NCBI GenBank assembly: GCA_963665665.1
Contig: OY762428.1
Span: 1,280,001-1,344,000, forward strand
From: Candidatus Kapaibacterium sp.
GTDB lineage: Bacteria > Bacteroidota > Ignavibacteria > Kapaibacteriales > UBA2268
DNA: 64,000 nt
Reading direction: 5' to 3'
The position numbers and the translations under genes are program-made. Under the pieces are notes generated by a model. The model saw nothing but the letters and a program-made list of their open reading frames with translations, searched no databases and was not told the origin of the DNA. Position 1 is the first letter of the stretch, and each line of letters opens with the position of its first letter. Of the stretch, positions 1-44,311 are shown one piece after another.

Positions 1-507
1 GCAAAGCTGACTCTTACAGGAAAGCTTGGCGATGTGATGAAAGAATCGGCAATGGCAGCACTATCTTATGTCAGGTCTAATTTCAGAAAGCTGAATGTAC
101 CTGAGAACTTCCAGAAAAAAAGCGAAATACATATTCATGTTCCGGAAGGCGCCATTCCCAAGGATGGCCCGTCGGCCGGTATTACTATGACTATGGCCCT
201 GATTTCATGCGCTTCAAAGAAGAAGCTTAAAGGCGATACGGCAATGACAGGCGAAGTTACTCTGCGCGGGAATATACTCCCGATCGGCGGACTGAACGAA
301 AAGCTTCTTGCAGCAAAACGCCTCGGCATCAAATCGGTTCTTATTCCGATGGACAACAAAAGAGATATTGAAGATATCGACAAGGAGATCACGGATGGAC
401 TGGAAATTATTCCGGTAAAAAATATCGAGCAAGCTTTGCCACATGCCTTCAGGAATTGGGAAGTCAAAAAACAGAGAAAAACAGCAACTAAGGCCAAATC
501 GAAATAA
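1..507 (+). CDS. lon: Lon protease, C-terminal proteolytic domain (5' partial)
   Basis: Frame is open from base 1. HIHVPEGAIPKDGPSAG catalytic Ser motif and TGEVTLRG...IGGLNEK Lys motif. Confidence 0.95.
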   Translation, partial: AKLTLTGKLGDVMKESAMAALSYVRSNFRKLNVPENFQKKSEIHIHVPEGAIPKDGPSAGITMTMALISCASKKKLKGDTAMTGEVTLRGNILPIGGLNEKLLAAKRLGIKSVLIPMDNKRDIEDIDKEITDGLEIIPVKNIEQALPHAFRNWEVKKQRKTATKAKSK

Positions 508-529
508 TCATTGCAAATATATTTATATT

Positions 530-560
530 AAAGCCCGGGGTTGAACATCCGGGCTTTTTT
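530..560 (+). terminator. Intrinsic terminator after lon
   Basis: AAAGCCCGG-loop-CCGGGCTTTTTT hairpin with U-tract. Confidence 0.8.
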
Positions 561-663
561 AATTATGATAATTTCTTGAATAATATCCGAACTTCAGAAA
601 TTTAAAGTACACCCTATTAATACTTCTCCTTTACAAAAAGATAACAGCGGAGAACATTTCTAT

Positions 664-1110
664 CCGTCATTCCCCGGCTCGTCGGGGTCAGCGGGGGACA
701 GTGCCGTTTTTGTTCTGATGTCCCCCTCAACGATGGTGGGACCGTCAGGCCGGGGAGGATTTTCAAGTAATTCTATGCTTTAAAACCCCATTTAAAAATC
801 TGTTTTGCAAGAGCATCCTTTTAATTGGTACGTATCTTCGAGTTGTTTTCCACCCCTGCCCTTCGGGCATCTCTCAAGAGGGGAAGTTTTATAAAATCAG
901 CCATCCAGAAAGCGGCGTAGCCGCGACATTTTTGTAGAAAGACGAATCCGGAAAGGACAACAGCCCCGTAGGGGCGACATTGGCAAAAGATTGTGTCGCT
1001 CCTACGGAGCTTTTAATAATCGCAATGTAAACATTATCTACAAAAATTCCGCTCCTACGGAGCTTTTTCCCTTCTTCCGAAGAATGTGGCCGGGGTGAAG
1101 CAGGAAGGGG
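664..1110. repeat. Cluster of GC-rich REP-like palindromes
   Basis: Nested stems at 671-757, CCACCCCTGCCCTTCGGGCA...GAGGGGAA at 850-886, and two GCTCCTACGGAGCT copies with TTTTTGTAGA/TCTACAAAAA inverted ends at 910-1064. Confidence 0.6.
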
Positions 1111-1255
1111 CGGAGATAAAGCACCAATGGTCGACACTATTGAACCAATGTTTTGCTTTATTGCTGCCTTGTTTTACTTCAAAACCCTCTCCTTCGGGGA
1201 GGGTTTGGGAGGGGTCAGAGGTATTGAGGTCTTGTTTGCACCTATTGCACCGATG

Positions 1256-1522
1256 TTTGAAGATAATGACGCCTTGGTTGAAGTTATTGATGCCTTTGTC
1301 GGAGTCATTGACGCCTTGGTCGAAGTCATTGATGCCTTGGTTGAAGATAATGACGCCTTGGTCGGAGTCATTGATGCCTTGGTCGAAGTCATTGCTGCCT
1401 TGGTCGAAGTCATTGCTGCCTTGGTCGAAGTCATTGCTGCCTTGGTCGAAGTCATTGCCGCCTTGGTTGAAGTCATTGATGCCTTGGTTGGAGTTATTGC
1501 TGCCTTGTTTGAAGATAATGAG
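1256..1522 (+). repeat. 21-bp tandem array, arm A (copy 1), about 12.7 units
   Basis: Consensus GTCGAAGTCATTG(A/C)TGCCTTG repeated without spacers. Confidence 0.97.
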
Positions 1523-1526
1523 TAAC

Positions 1527-1841
1527 CTCAATAAGGTCAAACAAGTCCTCAATAAGGCTAAACAAGTCCTCAGTAAAGTCAAACAAGTCCTCAATAAGGC
1601 TAAACAAGTCCTCAATAAGGCTAAACAAGTCCTCAGTAAGGCTAAACAAGTCCTCAGTAAAGTCAAACAAGTCCTCAATAAGGCCAAACAAGACCTCAAT
1701 AAGGTCAACCAAGACCTCAATAAGGTCAAACAAGTCCTCAGTAAAGTCAAACAAGACCTCAGTAAGGTCAACCAAGTCCTCAGTAAAGTCAAACAAGTCC
1801 TCAATGAGGCCAAATTTCACTACAATAAGGCCAAACAGTAG
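1527..1841 (+). repeat. 21-bp tandem array, arm B (copy 1), 15 units
   Basis: Consensus CTCA(A/G)TAA(G/A)G(CT/TC)AAACAAG(T/A)C repeated without spacers. Confidence 0.97.
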
Positions 1842-2187
1842 TTCAATACCACCGGCCAAGGCGGTATAAAGCCCTGCCAAAAAAGCAATTAGCCCAAACA
1901 TCAGGATTCTGGTTCAAAACAGCGTTGAAATAAGGAAATTATCCGATTCATTGATACCACAGGATGGGGAATTAAGTCCGGCGGTTGGTTCATTGGGGTG
2001 GAAGAACGGGGGGAGAGGGCCGGAGAAGGAAGTATTATGTTGTCATTCTGACGGAGCGAACCGACCGAAGAATCCATGCAAAATAGCAGATAATTTATAA
2101 AGAATGGATTCTTCGCTGGCGCTCAGAATGACCTTCCGGCCTTATAATCGTCAAATTCAATAGCCAGGTGCTTTAGCTCGTGGATAA
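1842..2187. repeat. Non-tandem tail of the element, inverted homolog of 11507-11974, includes a REP pair
   Basis: Near-identical reverse complement of 11740-11974 and 11507-11594. GTCATTCTGA...GAAGAATCC / GGATTCTTCG...CAGAATGAC pair at 2042-2132. Confidence 0.93.
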
Positions 2188-2282
2188 GGGCGTAACGTCC
2201 GGATGAAAGGCTATTTAAAAAAAACGTCCGGCACTTTAAAAGTATCGGACGTCTGAATATAAGTGAATTCTATTAATTCATT

Positions 2283-4622
2283 CTACCAGTAAATACCTTC
2301 AAGGTTCAGCTTGCGGCTGTCGTTGAACATTTCCTTGTCTTCGGTGCTTGTGAATGAAGAGGAAATTTCATTATATGCCTTGGCGGCCCACTGCGCGTCG
2401 TTGAAAATAGTTACAATGCCTTCGGCCCATGTAAGTTTGTCGACGGGAGTTTTCAGGGCGGATTTAGCGCTGCTGTACACTTCTTTGACTTTAGTCCTTC
2501 TTATGCCGAGTTCCCTAAGCCTTACGGCCAGGTTGTAAAGCATTTCTCCGCTTTCACAAAGCGAGGCAGCTTCTTTGTAGTATTTCATGGCATTGGCGTC
2601 GTCTTCAAGCTTGCAGTAAATACTTCCCACGTAGCCCTTTGTCATGAAGTCGCCTTTTTCGGCAGCAAGGTTAAGCAGTTCAAGTGTTTTATCCTTGTTT
2701 TCCAGGGCGTTGTATATTATACGTGCCAGCCTGGTAAAGTCATAAGGATCGGCGGTTTCGTCAGCTTTCAGTTTTTCTTCGAACATTGCAGTAAATTTCT
2801 CGACAAGAGATTTAGATTTATTTTTATCTTTGATCTCATCGAAAGTAATATTCACGAGGTCTTCGAGTTGGAACATAAACCTGACTTTGTTTTCAGCCAT
2901 AAAGTCAAGAATCCTGATTACCCATTCCTTATCGGATAAATACTTATTAATAGCTTTGATAAGTTTCTGATATTTTTTCGGGTCGAACATGGTATCGGCA
3001 AGAAGAGTTTCAGCCTTATCAAGAAGCTTTATGCAATAGTATTTATCATCAAGGGCTTCCATCATTTCTTCATTGATATCAAGGTAATCCTTCAGCGTCA
3101 GTGCATGGTCCTCACGTTTCTGAAATTCCTTGTAAATATCCTGGTTGGCTTCGCGTTTCTGATATTTCTCATCCACGCGGGCAGCCCAGTCAGCATCGTC
3201 GGCAAAATGATTTTTAACTGAATCAACAACCTTTTTCATTTCTTCAAGGGTTGTTACGTTTTCTTCGGCGGCTGTAATGATAGTTTTTGCGTAATCTTTA
3301 TCAGCAATCACTTCAATCACTTTTTCGCCTATCTGAAGCATCTCGGGAGAATTAGCAGCTATCTTTTCTACGCTTTCAAGGATTGAACGGCAAAAATCTT
3401 TATCGCCGAGTTGTTTGTCTACTTCGCCGAGCAATTCGATATACTGCGTGAATTTCTTACAGTTATCCTGAGATTTCTGATAGATTGTTTTAGCATAGGC
3501 TTTATCGTCAAGGTTTTTAATAATATCGCCTGCCAGAATCATCAGTTCTTTCGGATCTGTAATGCTTTCTTCAGCGCGTTTGTAAATTTCAAGGGCATAG
3601 TCCTTGTCCTTCACATCGTCGATAACGGCCTGTGCCAGCATTGTCAGGTCTTTAGCACCGGACATTTTGCTTTCTGCCCTGGCATAGAATTTCTTTGCAA
3701 GTTCAAGGTCCTGCATCTCGGTAGCAATATTCTTAGCAAATTCGAGAAGCTGTGCCTTGTCGCTGATATCGTTCATGCCTTTTTCATAAGCTTCCGATGC
3801 AGCTTCTTTGTTTTTAAGAAGGTCCCAGTAGCCTTTAGCCAGGTCGATATTTTCTTCACCGGACATAGCGAAGTCGGCAGCCTGCTCCATAAGCTCTTCG
3901 GCTTTTTCTTTATCATCGCAATATTTGATAAATCCGGTAGCGAGGAACACATATTCTTTTGTGAACTGGGCTTCGTCTTCAACGTCTTCGAGCAGTTCGG
4001 CAATCCATTCTTTATCGCCAAAGAGTTCATTGATGGAAGAACAGAGCCCGAAAGTTTCTTCAATTCCGTCAACCTTGTTTTCAGCTTTTTTAAAGAATGC
4101 CTTAGCTGTTTCCTTATCGTTCTGTTCTTCGATAAGGGATTTTGCCAGATTTTTATAATCGTCTAACGTTTTGCACTGTTCTTCAACTTTACCCATCAGT
4201 TCTTTTGCTTTATCCTCATCTCCGAGGTCGGACTGAACATACTGGGATATTGTAAGGAATTCTGCAATTTTTGATGCACTGTCAGCTGCCTGTTCGAGCA
4301 ATTCTTCTGCTTTTTCTTTATCGTCAAGAAGGGTAGCATAGCCATGGCCTACAACGGCATATTCCATAGCTTCGAAACAACCGTCTTCGCCTTCTTCCAG
4401 CATATCGCCGGCATAGTCCTTGTCATCAAGGCCCGTGGCATAGACTTCCGCGATTTTCACATAATCTGCCGGGAATTGGCAGTCGCCTTCGGCATTATCT
4501 AAGAGTTCCCTGGCATAGTCCTGGTCCGCGGGTTCCTGCGTTGCTTCCATGGCAAGCTGCGCCATTTCGGCAACAGTTGTGCATTCAGCTTCGCGTGCCT
4601 CAAGATCAGCTCTTGTTGCCAT
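2283..4622 (-). CDS. Uncharacterised acidic alpha-helical repeat protein (779 aa), third gene of the qmo-like operon
   Basis: Long ORF with AGGAG RBS and about 35-aa repeats containing a DKxxAxxLLxxA motif. No signal peptide or TM segment seen. Confidence 0.85.
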   Translation of the reverse strand: MATRADLEAREAECTTVAEMAQLAMEATQEPADQDYARELLDNAEGDCQFPADYVKIAEVYATGLDDKDYAGDMLEEGEDGCFEAMEYAVVGHGYATLLDDKEKAEELLEQAADSASKIAEFLTISQYVQSDLGDEDKAKELMGKVEEQCKTLDDYKNLAKSLIEEQNDKETAKAFFKKAENKVDGIEETFGLCSSINELFGDKEWIAELLEDVEDEAQFTKEYVFLATGFIKYCDDKEKAEELMEQAADFAMSGEENIDLAKGYWDLLKNKEAASEAYEKGMNDISDKAQLLEFAKNIATEMQDLELAKKFYARAESKMSGAKDLTMLAQAVIDDVKDKDYALEIYKRAEESITDPKELMILAGDIIKNLDDKAYAKTIYQKSQDNCKKFTQYIELLGEVDKQLGDKDFCRSILESVEKIAANSPEMLQIGEKVIEVIADKDYAKTIITAAEENVTTLEEMKKVVDSVKNHFADDADWAARVDEKYQKREANQDIYKEFQKREDHALTLKDYLDINEEMMEALDDKYYCIKLLDKAETLLADTMFDPKKYQKLIKAINKYLSDKEWVIRILDFMAENKVRFMFQLEDLVNITFDEIKDKNKSKSLVEKFTAMFEEKLKADETADPYDFTRLARIIYNALENKDKTLELLNLAAEKGDFMTKGYVGSIYCKLEDDANAMKYYKEAASLCESGEMLYNLAVRLRELGIRRTKVKEVYSSAKSALKTPVDKLTWAEGIVTIFNDAQWAAKAYNEISSSFTSTEDKEMFNDSRKLNLEGIYW

Positions 4623-4698
4623 ATTTCACTCCTGTATATTATTATATTAATTTTCAGTATAATCTGGCTCCCGAAACCGGGAGCCGCTTTAATCATAA

Positions 4699-6936
4699 TT
4701 ACATTTCTTTATACGGGTTGGGACCGACTTCATCAATAGTTTCAGCGAAGTTATTGATAATATCCGGCAGCTTGTGATACTCATCGATGGCAAGCATGTG
4801 GAGTTCAACCCTTTCAGGTTCAAGAACAAGCTGTTTCAGTTTTTCCTGAACATTTTCCATTCTCTTGTTAGCAAGCATACTGCCGTGAATAAAGTGGCAC
4901 TGGTAATCGTCGCCGTACTTACAGCCGAACAGGATAACGCCATCGAAACCTGCTGAAAGTGAATCTGCTATCCAGCTTGTATTCACCGAACCAAGGCAGC
5001 GCACCGGGATGATCCTGATATTCGGGGTTATCTGTGCCCTGCTTTTTGCAATAGTGTCCAGTGACGGATAGGCATCGTTCTCGCACATGAAGCAGAGAAT
5101 CCTTGGTGTGGCTTCTCCGTCATCTTCTTCCGTAGGTACGTAAATCGATTTGATCATATTGGAGATCATGCGCACGGAGTAGTTCTTGAAGCTGATGATC
5201 CTTTCCGGACATGCCCCCATACAGATACCGCAGCGACGGCAGCGAGTCGGGTTGGGTTTTGGAGTTCCTTTGGCATCTTCATCAAGTGTGCCAAAGGGGC
5301 ATTCCTCGGTACAGCGTTTACACTGTGTACATCTTTGCAGGAAGAAGTCCGGGAATGAAGTATCGCCCGAACGCGGATGAACTGCCTGGCCCTGTTTTGC
5401 ATTTTCGATAATCTGGATAGCTTTCAGTGCTGCACCGTAGGCATCGTTCTTTGCTGTCATGATATCCATTGGGGCCCTTACCGTACCGGCTGCATATACA
5501 CCTGTCCTCCTTGTTTCGTATGGGAAGCAAATATAGTGTGAATCAGGGAACCCATATTTCAATGTCGGTAGGTCTGTTCCCTGCCTGTATGTAAGCTGTA
5601 GTATCTGAGCTCCTGCTTCAGCCCCTGCGGCGGCTTTTTTGCCGTCTTCAAGTTCAGCTTCGTCAGCAGCCTGGCCGTTACCGTTTTCTTCAACTTTCGT
5701 GGATGGAACCATACCTGTTGCCAGAACAACCAGGTCAGCACTAATTGAAATATTTTCGCCAATCAGGGTGTCGTCAACATCAACTGTTATTTCGCCGTTT
5801 TCATTCTCCGCTATATTGGCAATTTCACCCTTGGTAAGGAATATATTATCGGCTGCCTGCACTCTTTTGTAGAATGATTCGTACTGCGCCGGTGTACGCA
5901 TATCTTTATAGATCACAAAAATTCTTGCATCAGGATATTTTTCCCTTACATAAAGGGATTGCTTCAGCGAAGTCATACAGCAGAAACCCGAGCAGTATGG
6001 CAGGTGGTTTTCATCCCTGGAACCGGCGCACTGGACGAATACAACAGTTTTAATATTGCTATCGTCAGATGGTTTTTTGATAACGCCGTTCTTTGCCATT
6101 TCCTCAAGTTCAATATTGGTTACCACGTTCTTCATCTCGCCGTAACCGAGGTGGCCGAGTTTATTAGCGTCGTAAGGTTTCCAGCCTGTTGCCTGAACAA
6201 TAGCACCAACCTGGAATTCAATATTACTACCTTTATGTTCGGCTGTAATATCATACATACCGGGAGCACCATCGGTTTTCTTTATCGTGGTATTCAGGAG
6301 AACCTGGATATTCTTGTCAGATTTAACTTCTGCAATCAGTTCTTCGCTGCGGTTGGGCTGGAGGTCGAGATAAGGTTCGCCGAATGGAGTTGTTTTATAA
6401 AGTTTATTATAAAAGCCGCCAAGCTTATCTTCTTTTTCAACAAGTATAACGTGGTAATCAGCTTTGGAAGCTGCAATAGCGGCATTCATACCTGCCACAC
6501 CGCCGCCAACAACCATCACGGTTTCATTAATATCAAGTTCCAATGGTTCGGGATATTCCATCACATTAACTTTGGCAAGGCCCATTTTCATGTAGTCAAG
6601 AGCCATGTTGTATGTGTTAATATCGCCTGCTTCGTGCATCCAGGCAACCTGTTCACGCAGGTTCACCCTGTCCAGCATTACATGTTTGTCGAATCTGAAA
6701 AGCTCTGTATGGTATCGTGGAGAACTTGCGCCAATAACAACAGCGTTAAGGCCGTTTTCTGCAATATCTTTTTTAACTTCTTCCACACCGGCTTTTGTAC
6801 AAAGGTTTTCCATAACTTTTACAAGAGCCACGTTTTCCTGGCCGGCGAGGTCTTCTTTCAGCTTTTCGCAGTCAACAGCCTCGCCTATACCGAATGCAGA
6901 GCAAATATATAATCCTACTTTTCTTTCATCAGCCAT
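4699..6936 (-). CDS. qmoB: QmoB-like protein (HdrA-like FAD domain + 2x[4Fe-4S] + MvhD-like domain)
   Basis: VVGGGVAG FAD motif, QCAGSRD and YCSGFCC, CTQCKRCTEECP and CRRCGICMGACP ferredoxin motifs, C-terminal CENDAYP...VRCLGS...GCKYGDDYQCHF. Confidence 0.9.
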   Translation of the reverse strand: MADERKVGLYICSAFGIGEAVDCEKLKEDLAGQENVALVKVMENLCTKAGVEEVKKDIAENGLNAVVIGASSPRYHTELFRFDKHVMLDRVNLREQVAWMHEAGDINTYNMALDYMKMGLAKVNVMEYPEPLELDINETVMVVGGGVAGMNAAIAASKADYHVILVEKEDKLGGFYNKLYKTTPFGEPYLDLQPNRSEELIAEVKSDKNIQVLLNTTIKKTDGAPGMYDITAEHKGSNIEFQVGAIVQATGWKPYDANKLGHLGYGEMKNVVTNIELEEMAKNGVIKKPSDDSNIKTVVFVQCAGSRDENHLPYCSGFCCMTSLKQSLYVREKYPDARIFVIYKDMRTPAQYESFYKRVQAADNIFLTKGEIANIAENENGEITVDVDDTLIGENISISADLVVLATGMVPSTKVEENGNGQAADEAELEDGKKAAAGAEAGAQILQLTYRQGTDLPTLKYGFPDSHYICFPYETRRTGVYAAGTVRAPMDIMTAKNDAYGAALKAIQIIENAKQGQAVHPRSGDTSFPDFFLQRCTQCKRCTEECPFGTLDEDAKGTPKPNPTRCRRCGICMGACPERIISFKNYSVRMISNMIKSIYVPTEEDDGEATPRILCFMCENDAYPSLDTIAKSRAQITPNIRIIPVRCLGSVNTSWIADSLSAGFDGVILFGCKYGDDYQCHFIHGSMLANKRMENVQEKLKQLVLEPERVELHMLAIDEYHKLPDIINNFAETIDEVGPNPYKEM

Positions 6937-6937
6937 T

Positions 6938-8206
6938 TTATTTGCTCCTCTTAATAATATGAATAGCTTTCATGGCAGCACCGGTTGATTCCTGAACAAC
7001 ACCGGCAACATCTTTCGGGCGTGTACATACGCCGCACCCGATAATTCCGTCTTTAATATCCGTTCTTACAAAACCGCACCTGTCCAGAAGTTCAGGATTG
7101 AATTCGGCAATTTTCTGTGTGCGCGGTTTCATACCTGTGGCAAGAACTACAAGGTCAACGTCAAGCTGGTTCAGTTCGCCGGCAATAGTATCTTCGGCTT
7201 CAACTGTCAACTTGTCGGAACCGTGTTCTTTGAAGACTTTAGCAACTTTACCGCGGTGGAAGAATAATTTCTCATCTTCTTTGGTATCATTGTAGAAATC
7301 TTCAAAAATTCCATAAGACCGAATATCAATATAAAATATATGTACTTCCGCTTCGGGAAGCTGTTCGCGTATATAACGAGCCTGTTTCAGCGATGCAAGG
7401 CAGCATATCGAAGAGCAGTATTCCAGGTGGTTTTCATCCCTGGAGCCTGCGCACTGCACAAATGCCACACTTTTTATTTCTTTATCCATACCCGGAACCT
7501 GTATCTTTCCTTCAGTAGGTCCGTTAGGTGCGGCGAGCCTTTCAAGCTCAACGTTGGTGATTACATCCGGGTTGTTCTTATAGCCAAGAAGTTCAAGCTT
7601 ATTTGCATCATAAGGATCCCAACCGGCAGCCCAAATAACTGATTTAGCAGTAAAGACTTTGGTTTCCGGTTTCTGTGCCAGGTCAAGGCAGTCAGTAAAT
7701 TTTTCCCCGAGTTCGTCAAGCTTATCTGCCGGGCAGGCAGATTTGTCGAATACATATTTCATGGGGAAAGCATTGTTGTAGGGCATATACATTATTTTTG
7801 ATTTATTCAGCCCGTAGTTAAAATCATCATCTTTTGTGAACTCAATTTCGGAAGCTACTTTCTCGCACAGGTCTTCCGGGGCTTCATCCCGAATATAGCG
7901 CGGTGTTATCTTAACTGTAACTTCATAATTTCCGGGTTCGCCCTTAATACTTTCAACTTCCGTAAGTGTATAAAGAGTTATTCTCGGGTTTTCTTTCAGC
8001 CTTTTTGTGTTGATCTCCAGGCCGCAAGTCGGGGGACATAATTTTGGGAAATACTGGTTTAGCTGTGCAACGCGCCCTCCGATGAAGGGATTCTTTTCGA
8101 TCAGGGTAACATTGAACCCTGTTTCGGCTGTTTCAAGCGCTGCTGATAAACCGGAAATTCCCGCCCCCACTACCAGAACGTCGGTTGCGATGGTTTTTTT
8201 TTCCAT
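6938..8206 (-). CDS. qmoA: QmoA-like HdrA-family flavoprotein
   Basis: VVGAGISG, QYFPKLCPPTCG, QCAGSRD and YCSSICC motifs. About 420 aa and directly upstream of qmoB. Confidence 0.9.
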   Translation of the reverse strand: MEKKTIATDVLVVGAGISGLSAALETAETGFNVTLIEKNPFIGGRVAQLNQYFPKLCPPTCGLEINTKRLKENPRITLYTLTEVESIKGEPGNYEVTVKITPRYIRDEAPEDLCEKVASEIEFTKDDDFNYGLNKSKIMYMPYNNAFPMKYVFDKSACPADKLDELGEKFTDCLDLAQKPETKVFTAKSVIWAAGWDPYDANKLELLGYKNNPDVITNVELERLAAPNGPTEGKIQVPGMDKEIKSVAFVQCAGSRDENHLEYCSSICCLASLKQARYIREQLPEAEVHIFYIDIRSYGIFEDFYNDTKEDEKLFFHRGKVAKVFKEHGSDKLTVEAEDTIAGELNQLDVDLVVLATGMKPRTQKIAEFNPELLDRCGFVRTDIKDGIIGCGVCTRPKDVAGVVQESTGAAMKAIHIIKRSK

Positions 8207-8702
8207 AACAGGCCTTTCCGTTATTAATCAATAGAATTATTTATTATCGAAAATTCAATTCTGATTTATTGTTCTATTCGTCAAGCCTTTGCGGTCATTA
8301 TCCGTGCATCTCGTCTTTTTTAAACTAAAACAGGGGTTGTTCATTCCCCCTACAGCGTATCGCGTCATCAATTCCTAAAAGTCGTCGGAATATAAACCAT
8401 AAGGGCTGTTCAAACAAAATGTATTCTGATATTGTAACCTGACTGTTGGCGGGGCTTTCTTGTTGATTTTTATAAGCTGTAGAAAAAAAATGAAATAGCT
8501 TTGCCAAAATCATTTTTTTGTTGATTTCAATATAGAATTTCTTCTGATTTTCAAGCATTTTCAGCAGGCGATCCATAAATATTCTATCTGATGTTTTTTT
8601 TTGAATTAGTCGCAAACAAAAAAAATAATTTTTTTTGCGACCAATTGCCGTTTGATCGGTTATTACTGTAAACGTCTTTCAAAATTTGTTAGCGGAGTCT
8701 TT

Positions 8703-11264
8703 ATGAAGAGTCTATTATTTGTAGTATTATTTATGAGTTTTATCAGCCTGAATGCGCAGACATTGAATGTGTTATCTGTTGATACTGACAGCTACCCGCT
8801 TATGAAAATTAATTTTACACTATCGGATGCGAACGGATTTATATACGGGGATCTGGACAAGGACGATTTTTCCCTTAAGGTTGATAATATTGTTAACGAT
8901 GATATTTCGATAGAATGTGATTCCGAAAGCTATGGTGAGAATACTTACATTATTTTATCCCTTGATGTTAGTACTTCAATGAATAACTCTATCGGGAACA
9001 ATGAAAATCGCTTTGACTGGGCCAAATATGCTTCAACAAATTTTATTGACCAGGTAGAATTAAGGAATGATTCCAAAATTTATATCAGTACTTTTTCAGA
9101 TGATGTTAAGAATGTAAGCGGATTCCAGGGCAATAAAGATTTTCTTCATGAATTTATTGATACAATAAAGGTAAAGGGGGGAGTAACTAATTATAACCCG
9201 CCATTCCTGAACGATGGTAACGGTGCAATAAGCCTGCTCAGAAATCTTCCCAAAGAATCACGAAAAATTGTTGTTTTCCTGAGCGACGGGAAGCCTGCCT
9301 ATGAATTTATGTCAGATCAGATTGCGCTTCTTGCCAATCAGTATAATATTGAAATTTATACAATTCTTCTTGCCTCGCCGAAATCAGAAGAACTTACGAA
9401 GTTCTCGGAATCAACCGGCGGTGCGCATTATTCCACTTACGACAAAATTGAACTCAATGATATATACTCCAATATTGCCAAAAGAATAAAAGGAGAAAAT
9501 GTCTGTACAATCGAATGGCTTCAGCCATGGGAGTGTTCGCGGGATATAGTGGCAAGGGATATTGATCTTTGCTTTAAAAGGGAGATTATTATCCGGGAAG
9601 TCAACTACGAAATTCCTGAAGAAGCCTATGTTGAATCATCAACGGATAAGGATGAAATAATCTTCGGTACCGATATGTCCATTGGAAAAAAAGAGATCTT
9701 TACCGTTAAAGCCGAAAGTGGAGAGTGTATAATTGATGATTGCCGGATTTTACCGGACGACGGCGCATTTGAACTCCGCCTGATCAATAATAGCTTCCCG
9801 ATTACTTTGAAGGAAGGCAACAGCGTCGACTTTGAAATTGAAATGACGGCAGAACCACAGGAAGAAATATACAAAGTTGATTTCCTTTCTTCTCCATGCC
9901 CGATCAAAAGCATTGATATTTATACAGACTGCAGGGTCGGTGCTTTGGATGAAATCGATCTTGGCAGCAGAATTCATCAAAGCAAAAGAAGTTTTAGCAT
10001 AAATAACGTTATTACAAACAATAATCAATTTGATATATCCGGCAGATTTATAATAATGGGTAAAGATGCCGGTAAATTTTCTATCGGGGGCAGCAATTAT
10101 TTCGAACTAAAGCCGGGGGAATCTCTGGATATCGACCTTGACTTTTTCTCCGACGAAGACGGAATATTCAATGCCGGAATTGAGTTTCAGCTAATCGACG
10201 CTTGCGACGATGTTGTGATACCTCTGTTATTCGAATCCTATAAAGCTTTTGAATGCAATGATATTAACTTTGGAATCAACCCGGGATGCGTAACAAAGGA
10301 TACAACAATTATTTTCTCTGCTCCGGATAAAACTTCGATGACTGTTGAAGATATTGAGCTATACGGATCTTCTGCCAGTTTTTATGCAGTAGATTATGAA
10401 AAGAGAACATATCTCCCGAATGAAAAAATACCTTTGAAAATTTTATTTACACCTCAGCATCACGGTACATATAATACCGATATGAAAATTAATACAGATA
10501 TTGGTTCATCATCCATACATTTATCAGGGAATGCTGAAAGAGCAGAAGTTGCGATTATAAAATTTGAACCCCACGGGAGTTTCGCCTCCGACAATGATAC
10601 ATGGCAGATTGTGCCGGGAATAAGAAACAGCCTGCAAATGAATTTGTCATTACCGGAAAGCGCTGATATTGAATTTGACTCAATTAAAATAATTATTGAT
10701 TATTATGAAAAAATGTTCCTGTTCCTTCCCGAAGATTTCATGATTTCAAATATTGATGATAAGAACACCAACATATATTATCCGGAAAAAGGTAAATGCC
10801 ACATTGTTGTCAGGCCGGTAAAAAATCAAAATATTGAATACAATCTGGCTTTCCTTCCCTTGCTTGCAGATACCACGGGTTCGGCATTGAATGTGTCTGC
10901 TGAATGTTACGGACCGTTTTACTGCGTGGATAATACAAGCACAGGCAGAAATATTTATATGAAAACCTGCAACAGCGAGGGCAGGGTGGTAATTGTAAAC
11001 GCCGACCATAAATTGAAAAACATTTATCCACAGCCTGCCGGTAAATATCTCAACTTTGATCTCTTCCTTGGCAGAAACGATAATGTTAATCTTAAGATAT
11101 TCGATTCTTATTCCAATATTATTAATGAAATAAATTATAAAGAGTTATCTCCGGGCAATCAGCAATTGAAGATAAATACCGGCAGCTATTATTCCGGCTT
11201 GTTCTCTTATGTCCTGACAGTTGGCAGTGCAGTCTTCAAAGGGAGTTTTATTAAAGTGGAATAA
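8703..11264 (+). CDS. Secreted vWA-domain protein with Ig-like domains and T9SS-type C-terminal domain
   Basis: Signal peptide, MIDAS LDVSTSM and FLSDG, C-terminal IYPQPA...G.F...FIKVE. GGAG upstream of ATG 8703. Confidence 0.85.
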   Translation: MKSLLFVVLFMSFISLNAQTLNVLSVDTDSYPLMKINFTLSDANGFIYGDLDKDDFSLKVDNIVNDDISIECDSESYGENTYIILSLDVSTSMNNSIGNNENRFDWAKYASTNFIDQVELRNDSKIYISTFSDDVKNVSGFQGNKDFLHEFIDTIKVKGGVTNYNPPFLNDGNGAISLLRNLPKESRKIVVFLSDGKPAYEFMSDQIALLANQYNIEIYTILLASPKSEELTKFSESTGGAHYSTYDKIELNDIYSNIAKRIKGENVCTIEWLQPWECSRDIVARDIDLCFKREIIIREVNYEIPEEAYVESSTDKDEIIFGTDMSIGKKEIFTVKAESGECIIDDCRILPDDGAFELRLINNSFPITLKEGNSVDFEIEMTAEPQEEIYKVDFLSSPCPIKSIDIYTDCRVGALDEIDLGSRIHQSKRSFSINNVITNNNQFDISGRFIIMGKDAGKFSIGGSNYFELKPGESLDIDLDFFSDEDGIFNAGIEFQLIDACDDVVIPLLFESYKAFECNDINFGINPGCVTKDTTIIFSAPDKTSMTVEDIELYGSSASFYAVDYEKRTYLPNEKIPLKILFTPQHHGTYNTDMKINTDIGSSSIHLSGNAERAEVAIIKFEPHGSFASDNDTWQIVPGIRNSLQMNLSLPESADIEFDSIKIIIDYYEKMFLFLPEDFMISNIDDKNTNIYYPEKGKCHIVVRPVKNQNIEYNLAFLPLLADTTGSALNVSAECYGPFYCVDNTSTGRNIYMKTCNSEGRVVIVNADHKLKNIYPQPAGKYLNFDLFLGRNDNVNLKIFDSYSNIINEINYKELSPGNQQLKINTGSYYSGLFSYVLTVGSAVFKGSFIKVE

Positions 11265-11299
11265 TATTCTAAGCTCTGAAAGGTATAGATACCCAACAT

Positions 11300-11974
11300 C
11301 CCCGGGGTGTTGGACATCTATACCATACAGTCTGTCTTTCTGCCTCATTCCCAAGCCCCGCCTGGGAAGGATGGAAATAATTCCCCTCCCTTGGAGGGGT
11401 GTCCGAAGGACGGGGGTGGACTTCCGGAAAAATTCCCCTCGTTGAGGGGTGGCGAGCGCAGCGAGACGGGGTGGTTTCTTTTTCTTTGCCTTCGCACCTT
11501 GCACATTTATCCACGCGCTAAAGCACCTGGCTATTGAATTTGACGATTATAAGGCTGGAATGTCATTCTGAGCGCCAGCGAAGAATCCATTCTTAATGCA
11601 TTCTCCCTCATTAAGAAGTTGTACTTCGTAATGCAGTTTTCAATTGATGCTGAGCTTCTCTATTTCAAAGTAGAACTTTGCAAGAAATATTCCTTCCCAA
11701 GTACAACTTGGGAAGGAGGGAATCAGCTACTAAGAAAGATGGATTCTTCGGTTGCTTCGCTCCGTCAAAATGACAACATAATACTTCCTTCTCCGGCCCT
11801 CTCCCCCCGTTCTTCCACCCCAATGAACCAACCGCCGGACTTAATTCCCCATCCTGTGGTATCAATGAATCGAATAATTTCCTTAATTCAATGCTGTTTT
11901 TAATCAAAACCCTGATGTTGGGGCTAATCGCTTTGTTTTCTGGGCTTTATACCGCCTTGGCCGGTGGTATTGAA
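11300..11974. repeat. REP-like mosaic and inverted tail of the element (copy 2)
   Basis: TTCCCCTCCCTTGGAGGGGTGTCCGAAGGACGGGGGTGG-type palindromes. 11507-11974 is the reverse complement of 1842-2187 with an extra ~145-bp insert. Confidence 0.9.
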
Positions 11975-12247
11975 CTACTGTTTGGCCTCATTGAGGACTT
12001 GTTTAGCCTTATTGAGGTCTTGTTTAGCCTTATTGAGGTCTTGTTTGGCCTTATTGAGGTCTTGTTTGGCCTTACTGAGGACTTGGTTGACTTTACTGAG
12101 GACTTGGTTGACTTTACTGAGGACTTGGTTGATCTTACTGAGGACTTGTTTGACCTTATTGAGGACTTGTTTGACTTTACTGAGGTCTTGTTTGACTTTA
12201 CTGAGGACTTGTTTAGCCTTATTGAGGACTTGTTTGACCTTATTGAG
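11975..12247 (-). repeat. 21-bp tandem array, arm B (copy 2), 13 units
   Basis: Reverse complement of the 1527-1841 unit. Confidence 0.97.
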
Positions 12248-12499
12248 GTTACTCATTATCTTCAAACAAGGCAGCAATAACTCCAAACAAGGCATCAATG
12301 ACTTCAACCAAGGCGGCAATGACTTCGACCAAGGCATCAATAACTTCAACCAAGGCGTCAATGACATCGACCAAGGCATCAATAACTCCGACCAAGGCAT
12401 CAATGACTCCGACCAAGGCATCAATGACTCCGACCAAGGCATCAATGACTTCGACCAAGGCAGCAATAACTTCGAACAAAGCATCAATAGCTTCAAACA
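12248..12499 (-). repeat. 21-bp tandem array, arm A (copy 2), about 12 units
   Basis: Reverse complement of the 1256-1522 unit (CAAGGCATCAATGACTTCGAC). Confidence 0.97.
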
Positions 12500-12877
12500 A
12501 GGCAGCAATGACTTAGAACATCGGTGTTTTACTTCGGCACAAGGTTGCAATGACTTAGAACATCGGTGTTTTACTTCGGCACAAGGCAGCAATGACTTAG
12601 AACAACGGTGCTTTACTTCGGCACAAGGCAGCAATGGCTTAGAACATCGGTGTTTTACTTCGGCACAAGGCGGCAATGGCTTAGAACATCGGTGCTTTAC
12701 TTCGGCACAAGGCGGCAATGGCTTAGAACATCGGTGCTTTACTTCGGCACAAGGCGTCAATGACTTAGAACATCGGTGCTTTACTTCGGCACAAGACGGC
12801 AATGACTTAGTACATCGGTGTTTTACTTCGGCACAAGGCGGCAATGGCTTAGAACATCGGTGCATTGCATTCGACAC
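12500..12877 (-). repeat. 42-bp tandem array (2x21 higher-order repeat), about 9 units
   Basis: AAGGCAGCAATG(A/G)CTTAGAACATCGGTG(C/T)TTTACTTCGGCAC repeated on the + strand. Confidence 0.97.
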
Positions 12878-13300
12878 TTCCTACCTCCCCCCGCCCCCCT
12901 CCTTCAAAAGGAGGGGGAGTTAATTCTATGATATTTAACTTCTTATCCCCTCCTAAAGTAGGAGGGGAATACAGGGGTGGTTTTCTTGCTTTGATTTGGA
13001 AAAAGGCGGCAATAATTTCAAACATCTATGCAATTCCTCTGACCCCTCCCAAACACACGCGGTGTGAAACCCTCCCCCAAGGAGAGGGCTTTGAAGAAGA
13101 ATAAGGCAAAAATAGAATAGAACATCGGTACTTTGCTTTCAAACATCGGTGGATTGCTTCTGACCAGGATGTTTTTAAGATTAACAAGGCCGTCAATTAG
13201 GCCAGGTAATGCTGTATAAAGGTTTGCCATCAGGATTATGATGCCAAACATCCCTGATAATAAAAACTCATCCGATGGCTTAAGGCCACCGGATGAGTAA
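12878..13300. repeat. REP-like palindromes and degenerate 21-mers
   Basis: CCCCTCCTTCAAAAGGAGGGG and TCCCCTCCTAAAGTAGGAGGGGA palindromes. 13031-13110 is an inverted homolog of 1160-1225. ACTCATCCGATGGC-TTAAG-GCCACCGGATGAGT hairpin. Confidence 0.7.
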
Positions 13301-13409
13301 TTAAAGCTAAAGAATGAGTTACTAATACCGCCGGATGAAACTGCAAGGCGGGGGAGTGAATCAGATTGGCAAATAAAAAAATTAAGAAAGATCGCCAGTT
13401 GATTCAAAA

Positions 13410-14453
13410 CTATTGCGGAAAGAAAGTAACAACGTCAGAAGGAATTTCTTTCGCCCATATTCTTGAAGCAGTACTCTGGTTAGCGCGAATCAGTGTTTTT
13501 ACATCTCCTTCATTCCTGATCATCATTATTTCCTTGTTTCTGCCGTGATATTGTAATCCGGTATATTCATAGCGGCTTACAAATTTAACAAGATCTTTGT
13601 ATCTTAAATCGATTTTGAACAATACGTCCTGGGTTGCTATGAATGCCCAGTCGGTTTCCGATATTGTCATATCAATGGGAATTCTTGTTTCAGCTTCGGC
13701 CCCGGCAATTCCAAGAGGAATATTATGGGCGATTTCTGCATCAGCAACAGAAATAAACTGAACGTAGGCAGAGCTGGCAGGCAGGTTGTCGAATTTTCCC
13801 TGCCCGGCGCTGATAACAACTATGGTCTGGTTGTCATGTGATGCCTCTATAAGTACCGGGTCGGGATTAACCACCAAAGTTTTCGTTACCCGATTCAGTC
13901 TGCTGTCAATAATAGAAACAGTATTGTCTTCTAAGTTTGCCGTGTAAACCTGATTTCCCGAGCCTGCAATAGCAACAGGTTTGCGCCCGACGGGAATAGT
14001 TTCGTCAGCAAGTTTCAGGTTTTTAGTATCGAAAACGCTGACCACGGAATCCTCACCGTGAGCAATATATGCTGTAGTGGCATTAACAAAGCAAATATCA
14101 AAGGGTTTTAACATATTTGCAGAGTAATCAATGGTTGCAATATGCTTGTAATTCAGGTCGCTGATAATTTCAATTTTATATGCATCGGGCATCAGAAGAT
14201 ATAACTGGCTGTTGTTTTTCAGGATTTTGGTTACTTTTCCGGGCAAAGTCTCGCCATTGGCAGTTTGATAAATATCCTGATCGCTTATGCTTCCCGAGGG
14301 CATATTCATAAGCGAGAGTACCGACATATTGCTGCCCCTTGCCAGCAGAGCTTTCCATGCTTCGCCTTCGGGCCCGATTACCTTTTCATCGTCGTTGCAT
14401 GAAGCAAGTACAAGCAATGATGCGACAAAAAATATGACAAGTAAATTTTTCAT
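13410..14453 (-). CDS. YncE/YVTN-like beta-propeller lipoprotein
   Basis: Lipobox LASC. IPVGRKPVAIA...VYTANLEDNTVSIID repeats. Confidence 0.75.
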   Translation of the reverse strand: MKNLLVIFFVASLLVLASCNDDEKVIGPEGEAWKALLARGSNMSVLSLMNMPSGSISDQDIYQTANGETLPGKVTKILKNNSQLYLLMPDAYKIEIISDLNYKHIATIDYSANMLKPFDICFVNATTAYIAHGEDSVVSVFDTKNLKLADETIPVGRKPVAIAGSGNQVYTANLEDNTVSIIDSRLNRVTKTLVVNPDPVLIEASHDNQTIVVISAGQGKFDNLPASSAYVQFISVADAEIAHNIPLGIAGAEAETRIPIDMTISETDWAFIATQDVLFKIDLRYKDLVKFVSRYEYTGLQYHGRNKEIMMIRNEGDVKTLIRANQSTASRIWAKEIPSDVVTFFPQ

Positions 14454-23798: not shown

Positions 23799-24066
23799 AT
23801 TTTTCTCAGTTATACTTATAGAGTGATGATTATTTGAAAACCTAACTTACAATAATTTGTAACCTTTTTTGTTGTTTATGTGTCTCACAAACCGAGGCTG
23901 AGGTGAAATTGCGAAAGTTTTATTATATTATTTAGCTGTTTTTGTTAAAAAATTGTTAAGAAATTATATTAAAAATGTAAATTTACTTGATTGTATATAA
24001 TTTAAGAGTTAATTTTGTCCGAAATTGATAATTGTTTTATTGTTTTATATAAATCTTGGAGTTAAG

Positions 24067-43579: not shown

Positions 43580-44311
43580 ATGAACAAAAAATTCCGCAAT
43601 TTCTTTACTGCTTTAATGGCTTTTGTTGTTTGCGCATCATTTAGTTACGCACAGAGCCTTGAATTCACACATCTGGAAACTGAGAAAACGGTTAATCCGG
43701 ATTCTTCATCTGCTGTTTTCCACGCCACTGTAAAAAACATCAGTTCTTCTGACGTCAGCGTTAAAATCACAGTGACCGAAGTTTCGGGTGAAGATGATTA
43801 CGACGTTTCCTGGTGCGATCCGAACTCATGTTATTTCCTTATGAATAATCCTCAGACTTCACCAGCATTCACATTAACCCCCGACGGAACAACCGAAGAA
43901 CAGTTCCATCTTGAAATATCTCCTTACGGTATTGAGGGTACATCAGTTGTGAAAGTTCGTTTTTTCAATGTTAATGATGAGAATGATTACATTGAGTTTG
44001 AAGCAATCGCAACTTTCGACAAAACAACATCTGTTACAAAGTTTACTATTCTTGAGAATAATTTCTCATCATTTGCCCCCAACCCGGCAAATAATGCTAC
44101 TTCATTTGATTTTGACCTTACCGGAATAGCAGATAAATCAACACTTGAAATTCACAGTGCTACCGGTGCTTTGGTAAAAACAATTAATATTACAAACCAT
44201 AGTGGAAATGTAACTATAAATACTTCAGATTTACCTCAGGGTATTTACTATTGCACATTGTTTGTTAACAGCGAAACAAGAAAAACACGGATTCTATCCG
44301 TAACAAGATAA
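43580..44311 (+). CDS. Small secreted Ig-like protein with T9SS-type C-terminal domain
   Basis: Signal peptide, WCDPNSCY, FAPNPA...LPQGIYY. GGAGAGG RBS and a terminator at 44338-44367. Confidence 0.85.
   Translation: MNKKFRNFFTALMAFVVCASFSYAQSLEFTHLETEKTVNPDSSSAVFHATVKNISSSDVSVKITVTEVSGEDDYDVSWCDPNSCYFLMNNPQTSPAFTLTPDGTTEEQFHLEISPYGIEGTSVVKVRFFNVNDENDYIEFEAIATFDKTTSVTKFTILENNFSSFAPNPANNATSFDFDLTGIADKSTLEIHSATGALVKTINITNHSGNVTINTSDLPQGIYYCTLFVNSETRKTRILSVTR

What the first reader, a model, noticed from the sequence alone, without database searches (positions are those of the whole stretch)
1256..1841. Bipartite 21-bp satellite: two adjoining arrays that are diverged reverse complements of each other
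Seen: reverse-complemented arm A units (e.g. TCAATAACTTCAACCAAGGCG) align with arm B units (e.g. TCAATAAGGTCAACCAAGACC) at about 17/21 for the closest variants and about 12/21 for common ones. The locus is therefore one 21-mer family arranged as two opposed arms around a short hinge (GAAGATAATGAGTAAC). The arms are similar in length in both copies (about 13+15 units here, about 12+13 at 11975-12499). There are no spacers and no transposase, RT or cas gene in the window. Inference: 21 bp is two helical turns, so it could be a phased protein-binding scaffold (iteron- or centromere-like). Alternatively it could be a ~270-bp-arm imperfect hairpin RNA or cruciform with regularly spaced internal loops. 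I know of no named element with this layout.
Basis: partly seen in the sequence, partly recalled or inferred. Interest (0 to 1): 0.82.

Follow-up and report, generated by a model that had tools for sequence, protein, structure and literature searches.

The report
Opposed 21-bp repeat arrays, genome-wide family
The two back-to-back 21-base repeat arrays are real and are one of about forty near-identical copies of a composite repeat scattered between genes of this bacterium; it does not behave like a hairpin, and whether it encodes small seven-residue-repeat proteins is still open.

Summary
Observation confirmed. Arm A (1267-1514) and arm B (1526-1814) are 21-bp tandem arrays. The arm consensuses match 14/21 in reverse complement (P=0.0036 against shuffles) and 9/21 directly.

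The locus is not unique. The 5.46-Mb genome holds about 104 loci of 21-bp-period arrays (about 55 kb). In 36 of 36 loci that carry both arms, A precedes B in the same relative orientation.

The hairpin/cruciform reading fails its own tests:
- Arm lengths do not co-vary (rho 0.01, n=36).
- The RNA fold is no more stable than column-permuted arrays (z -0.12 on the + strand, -1.71 on the - strand).
- There is no 10-11-bp AA/TT phasing.

Four of six frames are open. No Pfam, NCBIfam or Rfam family matches, and I found no homologous locus elsewhere.

Best reading (0.40): a lineage-specific composite repetitive DNA element. It would have arisen by tandem amplification plus one inverted duplication, been copied as a unit into mostly convergent intergenic regions rich in REP-like hairpins, and resized in 21-bp steps.

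Main rival (0.30): a two-ORF cassette on the + strand. It would encode an acidic (IDALVEV)n product and a basic (LNKVKQV)n product that starts at the hinge. A GGAGG-N8-ATG hinge occurs in 26 copies. The two products would be sense/antisense-related heptad microproteins.

Strand-specific RNA-seq and proteomics would decide between these.

The parts
1127..1266 (+). A-side leader: degenerate 21-bp units in register with arm A, including a 42-nt REP-like hairpin module (core at 1191-1216)
   Evidence: Register listing. The hairpin core occurs 78 times in the genome. The hairpin part alone also matches 8 of 24 same-family genomes and 1 of 16 same-order ones.
1267..1514 (+). Arm A: 21-bp tandem array, consensus ATTGATGCCTTGGTCGAAGTC (reads IDALVEV in one + frame)
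   Evidence: TRF, units, per-site variation.
1511..1526 (+). Hinge GAAGATAATGAGTAAC (class 1). It holds the ATG of candidate ORF B (1518-1520) and the TAA of candidate ORF A (1523-1525).
   Evidence: The class-1 hinge occurs 9 times in the genome.
1526..1814 (+). Arm B: 21-bp tandem array, consensus CCTCAATAAGGTCAAACAAGT (reads LNKVKQV in one + frame). It is a diverged reverse complement of arm A.
   Evidence: TRF. 14/21 match with P=0.0036.
1127..1525 (+). Candidate ORF A (132 aa from the first ATG; 90 aa from the ATG at 1253). Acidic-hydrophobic heptads (IDALVEV)n. No consistent start or Shine-Dalgarno sequence among copies.
   Evidence: Synonymous excess in this frame is 69/188=0.37 against 0.24 expected.
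1518..1841 (+). Candidate ORF B (107 aa): M-SN-(LNKVKQV)n-NEAKFHYNKAKQ-stop. Basic heptads. Overlaps the end of ORF A by 8 nt.
   Evidence: The equivalent hinge in 26 other copies reads GGAGG-N8-ATG.
1494..1901 (-). Rival ORF on the opposite strand (135 aa): hydrophobic start MFGLIAFLAGLYTAL... followed by (EDLFDLI)n, which resembles the arm A product.
   Evidence: By my count from the listing, its 12th codon is TAA in 36 of 48 copies.
1815..2010 (+). Degenerate terminal B-type units followed by a flank conserved among copies for about 170 nt past the ORF B stop
   Evidence: Alignment of 48 copies. No 3-base periodicity in variation: phase means 0.31, 0.36, 0.28.
11979..12248 (-). Second copy, arm B (inverted relative to copy 1). 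Candidate ORF B lies at 11975-12256 on the - strand.
12260..12514 (-). Second copy, arm A. Candidate ORF A lies at 12249-12500 on the - strand.
12497..12863 (-). 42-bp higher-order array (8.7 copies, 93% matches) built from two A-type units. Each 42-mer carries a stop in the IDALVEV frame.
   Evidence: units KAPMF* / IAALCRS.
13018..13240 (-). Third, arrayless fragment: the same hydrophobic start (MFGIIILMANLYTAL...) joined to A-leader modules and a REP-like hairpin

Best explanation
The locus is one copy of a lineage-specific composite repetitive DNA element, a '21-bp repeat island'. It is not a hairpin.

Shown:
- It consists of two adjoining tandem arrays of 21-bp units.
- Arm B is a diverged reverse complement of arm A.
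- The arms sit in one continuum of degenerate 21-bp units. REP-like hairpin modules lie on the A side and a conserved flank of about 170 bp lies on the B side.
- The order and orientation are the same in 36 of 36 loci that carry both arms.
- The copies lie in long intergenic regions, most often between convergent genes.
- The arrays differ between copies by whole units and are mosaics of unit classes.

Inferred:
- A 21-bp unit next to a REP-like hairpin was amplified in tandem.
- The array was duplicated once in inverted orientation.
- The composite then spread as a unit to about 40 sites.
- Since then each arm has grown and shrunk on its own in 21-bp steps, by slipped-strand mispairing or unequal recombination, and has been homogenised by gene conversion.
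- The four open frames are by-products of stop-free units.
- The element acts, if at all, as DNA filling 'safe' convergent intergenic space. At most it is raw material for young small ORFs.
For: Copy number. Genome-wide TRF gives 288 of 861 rows with period 21, plus 83, 56 and 33 rows at periods 42, 63 and 84. These merge into 104 loci totalling 55,348 bp.

Fixed layout. 36 of 36 loci with both arms have A then B in the same orientation. The hinges fall into classes with 26, 9 and 4 copies.

Arms vary independently. Spearman 0.01. Product lengths step by 7 residues and arrays are mosaic.

No frame is gene-like in every class:
- Four frames are stop-free in 34-44 of 45 arrays.
- The site-independent model already expects about 0 stops in those frames.
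- Class-5 arrays have no start codon in the B frame.
- The opposite-strand ORF has an in-frame TAA in 36 of 48 copies.
- The 42-bp array has a stop in the A frame in each unit.
- The array edges decay into degenerate units that carry the stops.
- Dicodon score of the B frame is -0.55, against +0.69 for real genes.

Lineage-specific bloom:
- The array or composite locus (type I) and the type II locus were not found in the other 40 related genomes searched; only short REP-hairpin pieces, one low-complexity stretch (G022) and other short repeat fragments matched in 9 of them.
- No relative turned up among genome or metagenome contigs.
- A complete same-family genome, G160, has its own dispersed 21-bp arrays (78 matches). 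Its congener G157 has 3 short matches.

Genomic setting. 16 of 36 loci lie between convergent genes and 4 of 36 between divergent ones. REP-like hairpin cores occur 78 times. A Y1-transposase ORF is present.
Against: - Every strong tandem array in the genome has a period that is a multiple of 21. This includes type II units with no significant similarity to type I. That is most simply explained by heptad coding, unless all families descend from one array.
- 26 hinges carry a perfect GGAGG 8 nt before an ATG that is in frame with the whole B array. The organism uses Shine-Dalgarno sites: the 16S rRNA ends in CCUCC and G reaches 46% at position -9.
- The class-1 and class-2 hinges differ by a 6-nt indel that keeps the frame.
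- All five B classes keep hydrophobic residues at the a and d positions in one + frame.
- Variation is unevenly spread over codon positions in both arms: 42/77/69 for arm A and 35/61/63 for arm B. Synonymous changes are in excess in the IDALVEV frame.
- I identified no mechanism of spread, no terminal repeats and no target duplications.
Confidence: 0.4

Rival explanations
1. Two-gene cassette on the + strand. Arm A would be translated as an acidic, very hydrophobic heptad protein (IDALVEV)n. Its stop lies 5-14 nt inside the start of ORF B, which would be a basic heptad protein of 56-156 aa, M-(LNKVKQV / FSKVNQV / WDKVKQA)n-NEAKFHYIKAKQ. B is codon-for-codon the antisense of an A-like sequence. 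The pair would therefore be sense/antisense-derived amphipathic helices, possibly forming an acid-base coiled coil. There would be about 39 paralogous cassettes.
For: - GGAGG-N8-ATG at 26 hinges and an ATG at 9 more. Shine-Dalgarno use by the organism.
- An 8-nt stop/start overlap at 1518-1525.
- B lengths differ by multiples of 7 residues, and the hinge indel between classes is 6 nt.
- a/d hydrophobicity is kept in all B classes, with an invariant Q.
- Synonymous excess in the IDALVEV frame: 0.37 against 0.24 expected. The frames of the long ORFs that span both arms are depleted: 0.09 against 0.22 and 0.07 against 0.18.
- B frame synonymous fraction is 0.28 against 0.18 expected.
- Bona fide proteins do carry such arrays. 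L023 is a TPR protein with 15.8 x 21 bp reading LDKANQD. A profile of B matches 2008 proteins at E<=0.001 in a library of 1.84 billion, and the 150 best listed are mostly long heptad-repeat proteins.
Against: - No homologue shares the tail or the architecture.
- The B frame uses G/C-ending codons in an AT-rich genome, and its dicodon score is -0.55.
- The antisense frame that shares wobble positions has an even higher synonymous excess: 0.42 against 0.25.
- Second codon positions vary as much as third positions.
- ORF A has no consistent start and runs through a REP-like hairpin.
- The hinge ATG is the recurrent ATG of the leader units.
- Class-5 arrays lack a start, and 3 of 11 have stops in this frame.
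- The language-model 'recognition' value is low, 868. The tool states this does not show whether a gene is real.
Confidence: 0.3
2. Convergent paralogues. Arm A would be read on the + strand. Arm B would be read on the - strand as an A-like protein: a hydrophobic N-terminus MFGLIALLAGLYTAL..., then (EDLFDLI / EHLVDLT)n, ending just past the hinge.
For: - The - strand frame is stop-free in 44 of 45 arrays.
- It ends just after the array in every class, including class 5.
- It has the best dicodon score of the six frames, +0.65.
- The same hydrophobic start precedes A-type modules at 13018-13240.
Against: - The 12th codon is TAA in 36 of 48 copies, and no Shine-Dalgarno sequence precedes any start.
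- Its wobble positions are the least variable sites: entropy 0.40 against 0.55 and 0.63.
- Synonymous fraction equals expectation: 0.21 against 0.22.
- A best-of-six dicodon score this high arises in 13-33% of shuffled arrays.
- The 'N-terminal domain' is itself a run of degenerate units.
- In class 4 this frame has a proline in every heptad.
Confidence: 0.1
3. Phased DNA scaffold: each 21-bp unit (two helical turns) would bind a protein on one face, in the manner of iterons or partition centromeres.
For: - The period is exactly 21 in all families.
- The layout is fixed.
Against: - About 100 chromosomal loci carry several unrelated unit sequences.
- No partition or replication gene lies beside the two window loci.
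- No AA/TT phasing at 10-11 bp.
- Binding was not tested.
Confidence: 0.07
4. The two arms pair as a long imperfect RNA hairpin or a DNA cruciform.
For: - 14/21 complementarity between arm consensuses.
- 106 A-B pairs in the + strand MFE structure, against a mean of 53 in controls.
Against: - MFE z -0.12 on the + strand and -1.71 on the - strand against column-permuted arrays. Controls reach 159 A-B pairs.
- Arm lengths are uncorrelated.
- The arms occur apart.
Confidence: 0.03

Closest known systems
Dispersed intergenic minisatellites, such as mycobacterial MIRU/VNTR loci (recalled, not read here)
   Same: Dozens of intergenic loci carry tandem copies of one unit family. Copy number differs between loci. 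Small open frames run through the units.
   Different: The unit here is 21 bp (the MIRU length and setting given here are recalled, not checked in any call). Each locus holds two opposed arrays in a fixed order. The loci lie mostly between convergent genes rather than inside operons. Strain polymorphism could not be measured.
REP / BIME / REPIN elements with RAYT (Y1) transposases (recalled)
   Same: The A-side leader contains a short GC-rich hairpin module with 78 genomic copies. The module is also found in related genomes. The setting is intergenic, and a Y1-transposase ORF is present.
   Different: The 21-bp arms are not palindromic and are tandem arrays of 7-33 units. No link between the Y1 gene and the arrays was shown.
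Heptad-repeat (coiled-coil) proteins encoded by 21-bp tandem DNA repeats, for example the TPR protein in L023
   Same: Period 21, high unit identity, and an a/d hydrophobic pattern (LDKANQD in L023, LNKVKQV here).
   Different: In L023 the array sits inside a long, clearly coding gene. Here the putative product is almost only repeat, there are about 39 copies, and no frame is proven.
CRISPR arrays
   Same: Regularly spaced short repeats in intergenic DNA.
   Different: There are no spacers, because the units abut. No cas family was found among the 32 window ORFs scanned.
Sense/antisense ('complementary') peptide pairs (an old hypothesis, recalled)
   Same: ORF B is, codon for codon, the antisense of an A-like sequence. 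It has inverted hydropathy and opposite charge.
   Different: No natural adjacent pair of this kind is known to me. Neither expression nor binding is shown here.

Membership tests
CRISPR array | Repeats separated by unique spacers of similar length | tested here: not met
   Units are head-to-tail with period 21.
CRISPR array | cas genes nearby | tested here: not met
   No Cas family among the 32 window ORFs of >=180 aa scanned.
REP/BIME/REPIN | Unit is a short imperfect palindrome (hairpin) | tested here: not met
   The arm units form few intra-arm pairs (32 and 13 in the MFE structure). Only the 42-nt leader module is a hairpin.
REP/BIME/REPIN | Many intergenic copies and a Y1 (RAYT-type) transposase in the genome | tested here: inconclusive
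   78 hairpin cores and one Y1_Tnp ORF of 155 aa. No association between them was shown.
Dispersed minisatellite (MIRU/VNTR-like) | The same tandem unit family at many intergenic loci | tested here: met
   104 loci. 79 loci belong to the named unit families.
Dispersed minisatellite (MIRU/VNTR-like) | Copy-number polymorphism between strains | not testable with these tools
   Contigs of a related strain (runs X4, X5) stop at the locus edges.
Heptad coiled-coil protein gene | One frame with a start, a stop and a/d hydrophobic heptads across the array | tested here: inconclusive
   Met for ORF B in 35-39 copies. Not met in class 5. Three other frames are equally open.
Heptad coiled-coil protein gene | Evidence of expression or conserved homologues | tested here: not met
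   No homologue. No RNA run is listed, so expression is untested.
Iteron / partition centromere | Array adjacent to rep or par genes on a replicon | tested here: not met
   About 100 chromosomal loci. The neighbours in the window are metabolic or other unrelated genes (no rep or par family).
Long hairpin RNA / cruciform | Arms pair more stably than chance and have matched lengths | tested here: not met
   z -0.12 and -1.71. rho 0.01.
CsrB/Rsm-type sponge RNA | Many GGA motifs presented in hairpin loops | tested here: not met
   GGA is present in 156 of 400 A units. There are no regular local hairpins. A CsrA gene does exist.

The most novel reading that the evidence does not exclude
The opposed arrays would be a two-gene operon. 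Its second gene would have been born from the antisense strand of an inverted copy of the first. Reverse-complementing a heptad-coding 21-bp array yields another amphipathic heptad with inverted hydropathy and opposite charge. The acidic (IDALVEV)n product and the basic (LNKVKQV)n product would then pair as a hetero-coiled coil. On this reading, the roughly 39 cassettes, and more widely the 21-bp arrays found in the other genomes of this order that were examined, would be a hidden class of array-encoded microprotein genes that change length in heptad steps.
Probability: 0.17. Interest if true: 0.85.

Novelty: new variant of a known kind. Interest (0 to 1): 0.6.

Why it matters
About 1% of a complete bacterial genome consists of tandem arrays that all share one period, 21 bp. 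One composite layout, two opposed arrays, is copied about 40 times. Related genomes carry their own 21-bp arrays with different sequences.

If the arrays are non-coding, this is an unusually large minisatellite bloom in a bacterium. It would also explain why short-read assemblies of this group break at these sites.

If they are coding, they would be a natural case of gene birth from the antisense strand of a repeat, and of sense/antisense-related helices encoded side by side. That would make an old idea about complementary peptides directly testable.

In either case, gene callers and repeat annotators will mis-handle these loci.

Tried and rejected
- Rfam at E<=1 over window 1-14000 gave only two chance-level rows.
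- Pfam and NCBIfam on four candidate frames gave only sub-threshold generic coiled-coil rows.
- The search for homologous proteins with ORF B found nothing in the 58-188 aa range. Longer and shorter ranges were not searched.
- The listing of cluster members: the first call used wrong ends for six minus-strand ORFs and I corrected this. No candidate is on record, but neither is the neighbouring 779-aa protein, so the look-up says nothing.
- No RNA holder is listed for this stretch. The laid runs are contigs that stop at about 902-937 and 2148-2161, and at about 11371-11425 and 13080. No contig bridges either locus.
- Complex prediction with ORF A plus the ORF B alignment gave no support (score 0.05, mark 0.32). 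This is not evidence either way.
- The protein atlas gave a best score of 0.84, which is a lead only.
- The dicodon coding score does not discriminate. Best-of-six scores of shuffled arrays average 0.56 +/- 0.45.
- The stop-count test is uninformative because the expected number of stops is already about 0.
- Replication-strand bias: 30 of 48 loci against a genome rate of 0.567, no signal.
- The 3' conserved flank shows no codon periodicity.
- The promoter/terminator scan found no convincing promoter on either strand. It found only the neighbouring genes' terminators and small hairpins.
- Synteny attempt: the neighbouring 779-aa gene was not found in G160 or G157 and matched only weakly in G018.
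- CsrA-sponge idea: a CsrA gene is present but there are no loop-presented GGA hairpins.
- L002 (G022) and L021/L022 are unrelated low-complexity or coiled-coil matches.
- Three literature searches found nothing on such arrays (search listings and abstract openings only, no paper was opened).

Full report
THE OBSERVATION

TRF finds arm A at 1267-1514 (21 bp x 11.8, 86% matches) and arm B at 1526-1814 (21 bp x 13.8, 87%). The second copy is inverted, at 11979-12248 plus 12260-12514. It is followed by a 42-bp higher-order array at 12497-12863. The hinge GAAGATAATGAGTAAC lies at 1511-1526, and its reverse complement lies at 12249-12264.

The arm A consensus matches the reverse complement of the arm B consensus at 14/21. 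The direct comparison gives 9/21. Shuffles of the B unit average 9.8, with P(>=14)=0.0036. The opposed-arm description is therefore correct and more than chance.

SCALE

The window is part of a single-contig genome of 5,458,198 bp with 38.6% GC.

- TRF on the whole genome gives 861 rows. Of these, 288 have period 21, and 83, 56 and 33 have periods 42, 63 and 84. The remaining rows are short low-scoring repeats with other periods.
- The 21-multiple rows merge into 104 loci totalling 55,348 bp.
- With <=3 mismatches to named unit consensuses, 79 loci have >=3 units. Of these, 36 carry both A-type and B-type units, 11 carry B only, 6 carry A only, and 25 belong to a second family, 'type II'.
- In 36 of 36 loci with both arms, A precedes B in the same relative orientation.
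- B units fall into five classes reading, in one + frame, LNKVKQV, FSKVNQV, VSKVNQA, WDKVKQA and EQASNEA.
- The hinges are of three kinds. The finding's class has 9 copies. GGAGGCAAAGAACATGTTCA has 26 copies. ATTGATTATAATCA[AG]TAAGG has 4 copies. In about 11 further loci a conserved AT-rich spacer of about 0.56 kb separates the A arm from an EQASNEA-type array.

ANATOMY

Listing the sequence in 21-nt register shows that the register runs far upstream of arm A. There it passes through degenerate units and fixed modules whose lengths are multiples of 21. One is a 42-nt GC-rich hairpin module with 78 core copies in the genome.

The hairpin part alone also matches related genomes; in all 9 of the 40 relatives searched had some short match.

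At the other end the B array decays into degenerate units. The unit that carries the ORF B stop differs from a normal unit at 3 of 21 positions. A flank conserved among 48 copies for about 170 nt follows, with no 3-base periodicity in its variation.

The loci sit in long intergenic regions, median 2.26 kb. Using ORFs of >=200 aa as gene proxies, 16 of 36 loci lie between convergent genes and 4 of 36 between divergent ones. Some of the proxy ORFs lie inside repeats. In the window, both loci are bounded by the terminators of convergent neighbouring genes.

Hairpin or cruciform:
- The + strand RNA fold of 1256-1841 gives -146.8 kcal/mol. Controls that keep the tandem structure and composition, by permuting unit columns per arm, give -144.5 +/- 18.9 (z -0.12).
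- The - strand gives -188.8 against -155.4 +/- 19.6 (z -1.71).
- Arm lengths are uncorrelated across 36 loci (Spearman 0.01, p=0.95; one locus was mis-parsed).
- The arms occur apart.

Phased scaffold:
- AA/TT autocorrelation at lags 10 and 11 is between -0.13 and 0.13.
- Several unrelated unit sequences share the period.
- Binding itself was not tested.

CODING OR NOT

Twenty-one bases are seven codons. Four of six frames are stop-free in 34-44 of 45 arrays. This is uninformative, because the observed site variants cannot make stops in those frames.

For the + strand:
- ORF B (1518-1841, 107 aa) starts at the hinge.
- In 26 copies the hinge has a perfect GGAGG 8 nt before the ATG. The organism uses Shine-Dalgarno sites.
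- B products are 56-156 aa and differ by multiples of 7 residues. The class-1 and class-2 hinges differ by 6 nt.
- All classes keep hydrophobic a/d positions and an invariant Q.
- In arm A, single-step differences between unit variants are synonymous in the IDALVEV frame in 69 of 188 cases (0.37, against 0.24 expected). They are depleted in the frames of the two long ORFs that span both arms: 0.09 against 0.22 and 0.07 against 0.18.
- ORF A (1127-1525) ends 8 nt inside ORF B.

Against the + strand:
- ORF A has no consistent start and reads through the hairpin module.
- The hinge ATG is the recurrent ATG of the leader units.
- EQASNEA arrays have no start codon in this frame.
- The antisense frame that shares wobble positions shows a larger synonymous excess: 0.42 against 0.25, compared with 0.28 against 0.18.
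- Second codon positions vary as much as third positions.
- The B frame uses G/C-ending codons, and its dicodon score is -0.55. Real genes score +0.69.

For the - strand:
- The frame reading (EDLFDLI)n has the best dicodon score, +0.65. Shuffled arrays reach such values in 13-33% of trials.
- By my count from the listing, its 12th codon is TAA in 36 of 48 copies.
- Its wobble sites are the least variable.

Conclusion on coding: no frame is proven.

RELATIVES

- The array or composite locus of type I and the type II locus were not found in 40 related genomes. Most of these are fragmented assemblies, in which repeats may simply be unassembled.
- ORF B has no relative among genome or metagenome contigs. 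The hits are unrelated coiled coils and a GC-rich TPR protein with a genuine 15.8 x 21-bp LDKANQD array.
- An exhaustive profile search returns 2008 proteins at E<=0.001; the 150 best listed are mostly long, of which I read 8, and each of those holds a heptad array.
- One short predicted protein, P0068, has KANQVFS/KANHVFS heptads like class 2 but has different flanks. Its closest match among 254 genomes of the order is this genome itself.
- That search also showed that nine other genomes of the order carry 21-bp arrays with quite different units. These loci were selected with a heptad query, so they do not test a '21-bp rule'.
- One of them, the complete genome G160, has 78 dispersed matches to its own array locus. 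Its congener G157 has 3 short matches. This is a species-level bloom.

VERDICT

I rank the readings as follows:
- Composite repetitive DNA: 0.40.
- A + strand cassette of two heptad microproteins related as sense and antisense: 0.30.
- Convergent paralogues: 0.10.
- Phased DNA scaffold: 0.07.
- Hairpin or cruciform: 0.03.

It has to assume common descent of all the arrays.

CONTEXT

- At least 150 T9SS sorting-domain matches.
- A canonical anti-Shine-Dalgarno sequence in the 16S rRNA.
- One Y1-transposase ORF.
- One CsrA gene.
- The window's other genes are ordinary chromosomal genes.

Noticed in passing
window 12497-12863: A 42-bp higher-order array (8.7 copies, 93% matches) made of two A-type units. 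Each 42-mer carries a stop in the IDALVEV frame. Only two loci in the genome have it.
   Followed up: partly
window 1183-1216, 12895-12917, 13060-13090, and 78 sites genome-wide: A GC-rich REP-like hairpin module (core CCTTCGGGGAGGGTTTGGGAGGGGTC). It is also present in related genomes. A Y1-transposase ORF of 155 aa lies at G000:C1:1821817-1822161. No link between the two was shown.
   Followed up: partly
G000:C1:235702-236291 and 23 further loci (for example L027): A second family of 21-bp arrays, 'type II'. It has two directly related arms (GCACATACCAACGCTAAGACG and GCTCGGGGGAACGCTCGGAAA), all six frames are open, and it has no significant similarity to the A or B units.
   Followed up: partly
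G000:C1:2485017-2485592 (L028) and about 10 similar sites: A conserved AT-rich spacer of about 0.56 kb lies between an A arm and an EQASNEA-type array. The spacer itself contains short 21-bp-period stretches.
   Followed up: no
L037/L047 (G160), L039 (G162), L040 (G018), L043 (G024) and others: Other genomes of the same order carry 21-bp arrays with different units. G162 reads (IDAIEDL)n on one strand, which recalls arm A. G160 has 78 dispersed matches to its own array locus, while its congener G157 has 3.
   Followed up: partly
protein P0068 (public library): A 130-aa predicted protein with (KANQVFS/KANHVFS)n, the same heptad as class-2 B units, but with unrelated AT-rich-looking flanks. Its source was not found among 254 genomes of the order.
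   Followed up: partly
window 909-1066: A cluster of small hairpins (GCTCCTACGGAGC, GCGGCGTAGCCGC, GCCCCTACGGGGC), some followed by T-runs, lies between the upstream gene's terminator and the repeat locus.
   Followed up: no
window 2040-2110 and 11560-11760: Another dispersed repeat (...GTCATTCTGA...GAAGAATCCAT...) flanks both loci. It is matched at many sites in related genomes.
   Followed up: no
G000:C1:1775392-1777532: Two nearly identical copies of the whole bipartite element lie in tandem, 1.4 kb apart.
   Followed up: no
L023 3002-3332: A GC-rich metagenome contig encodes a TPR protein whose C-terminal part is a 15.8 x 21-bp array reading LDKANQD. This is a clear coding example of such an array.
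   Followed up: yes
window 16142-18091, 24025-26067, 43580-44308, 44814-50402: Four proteins in the window carry T9SS C-terminal sorting domains. The genome has at least 150 such matches.
   Followed up: no
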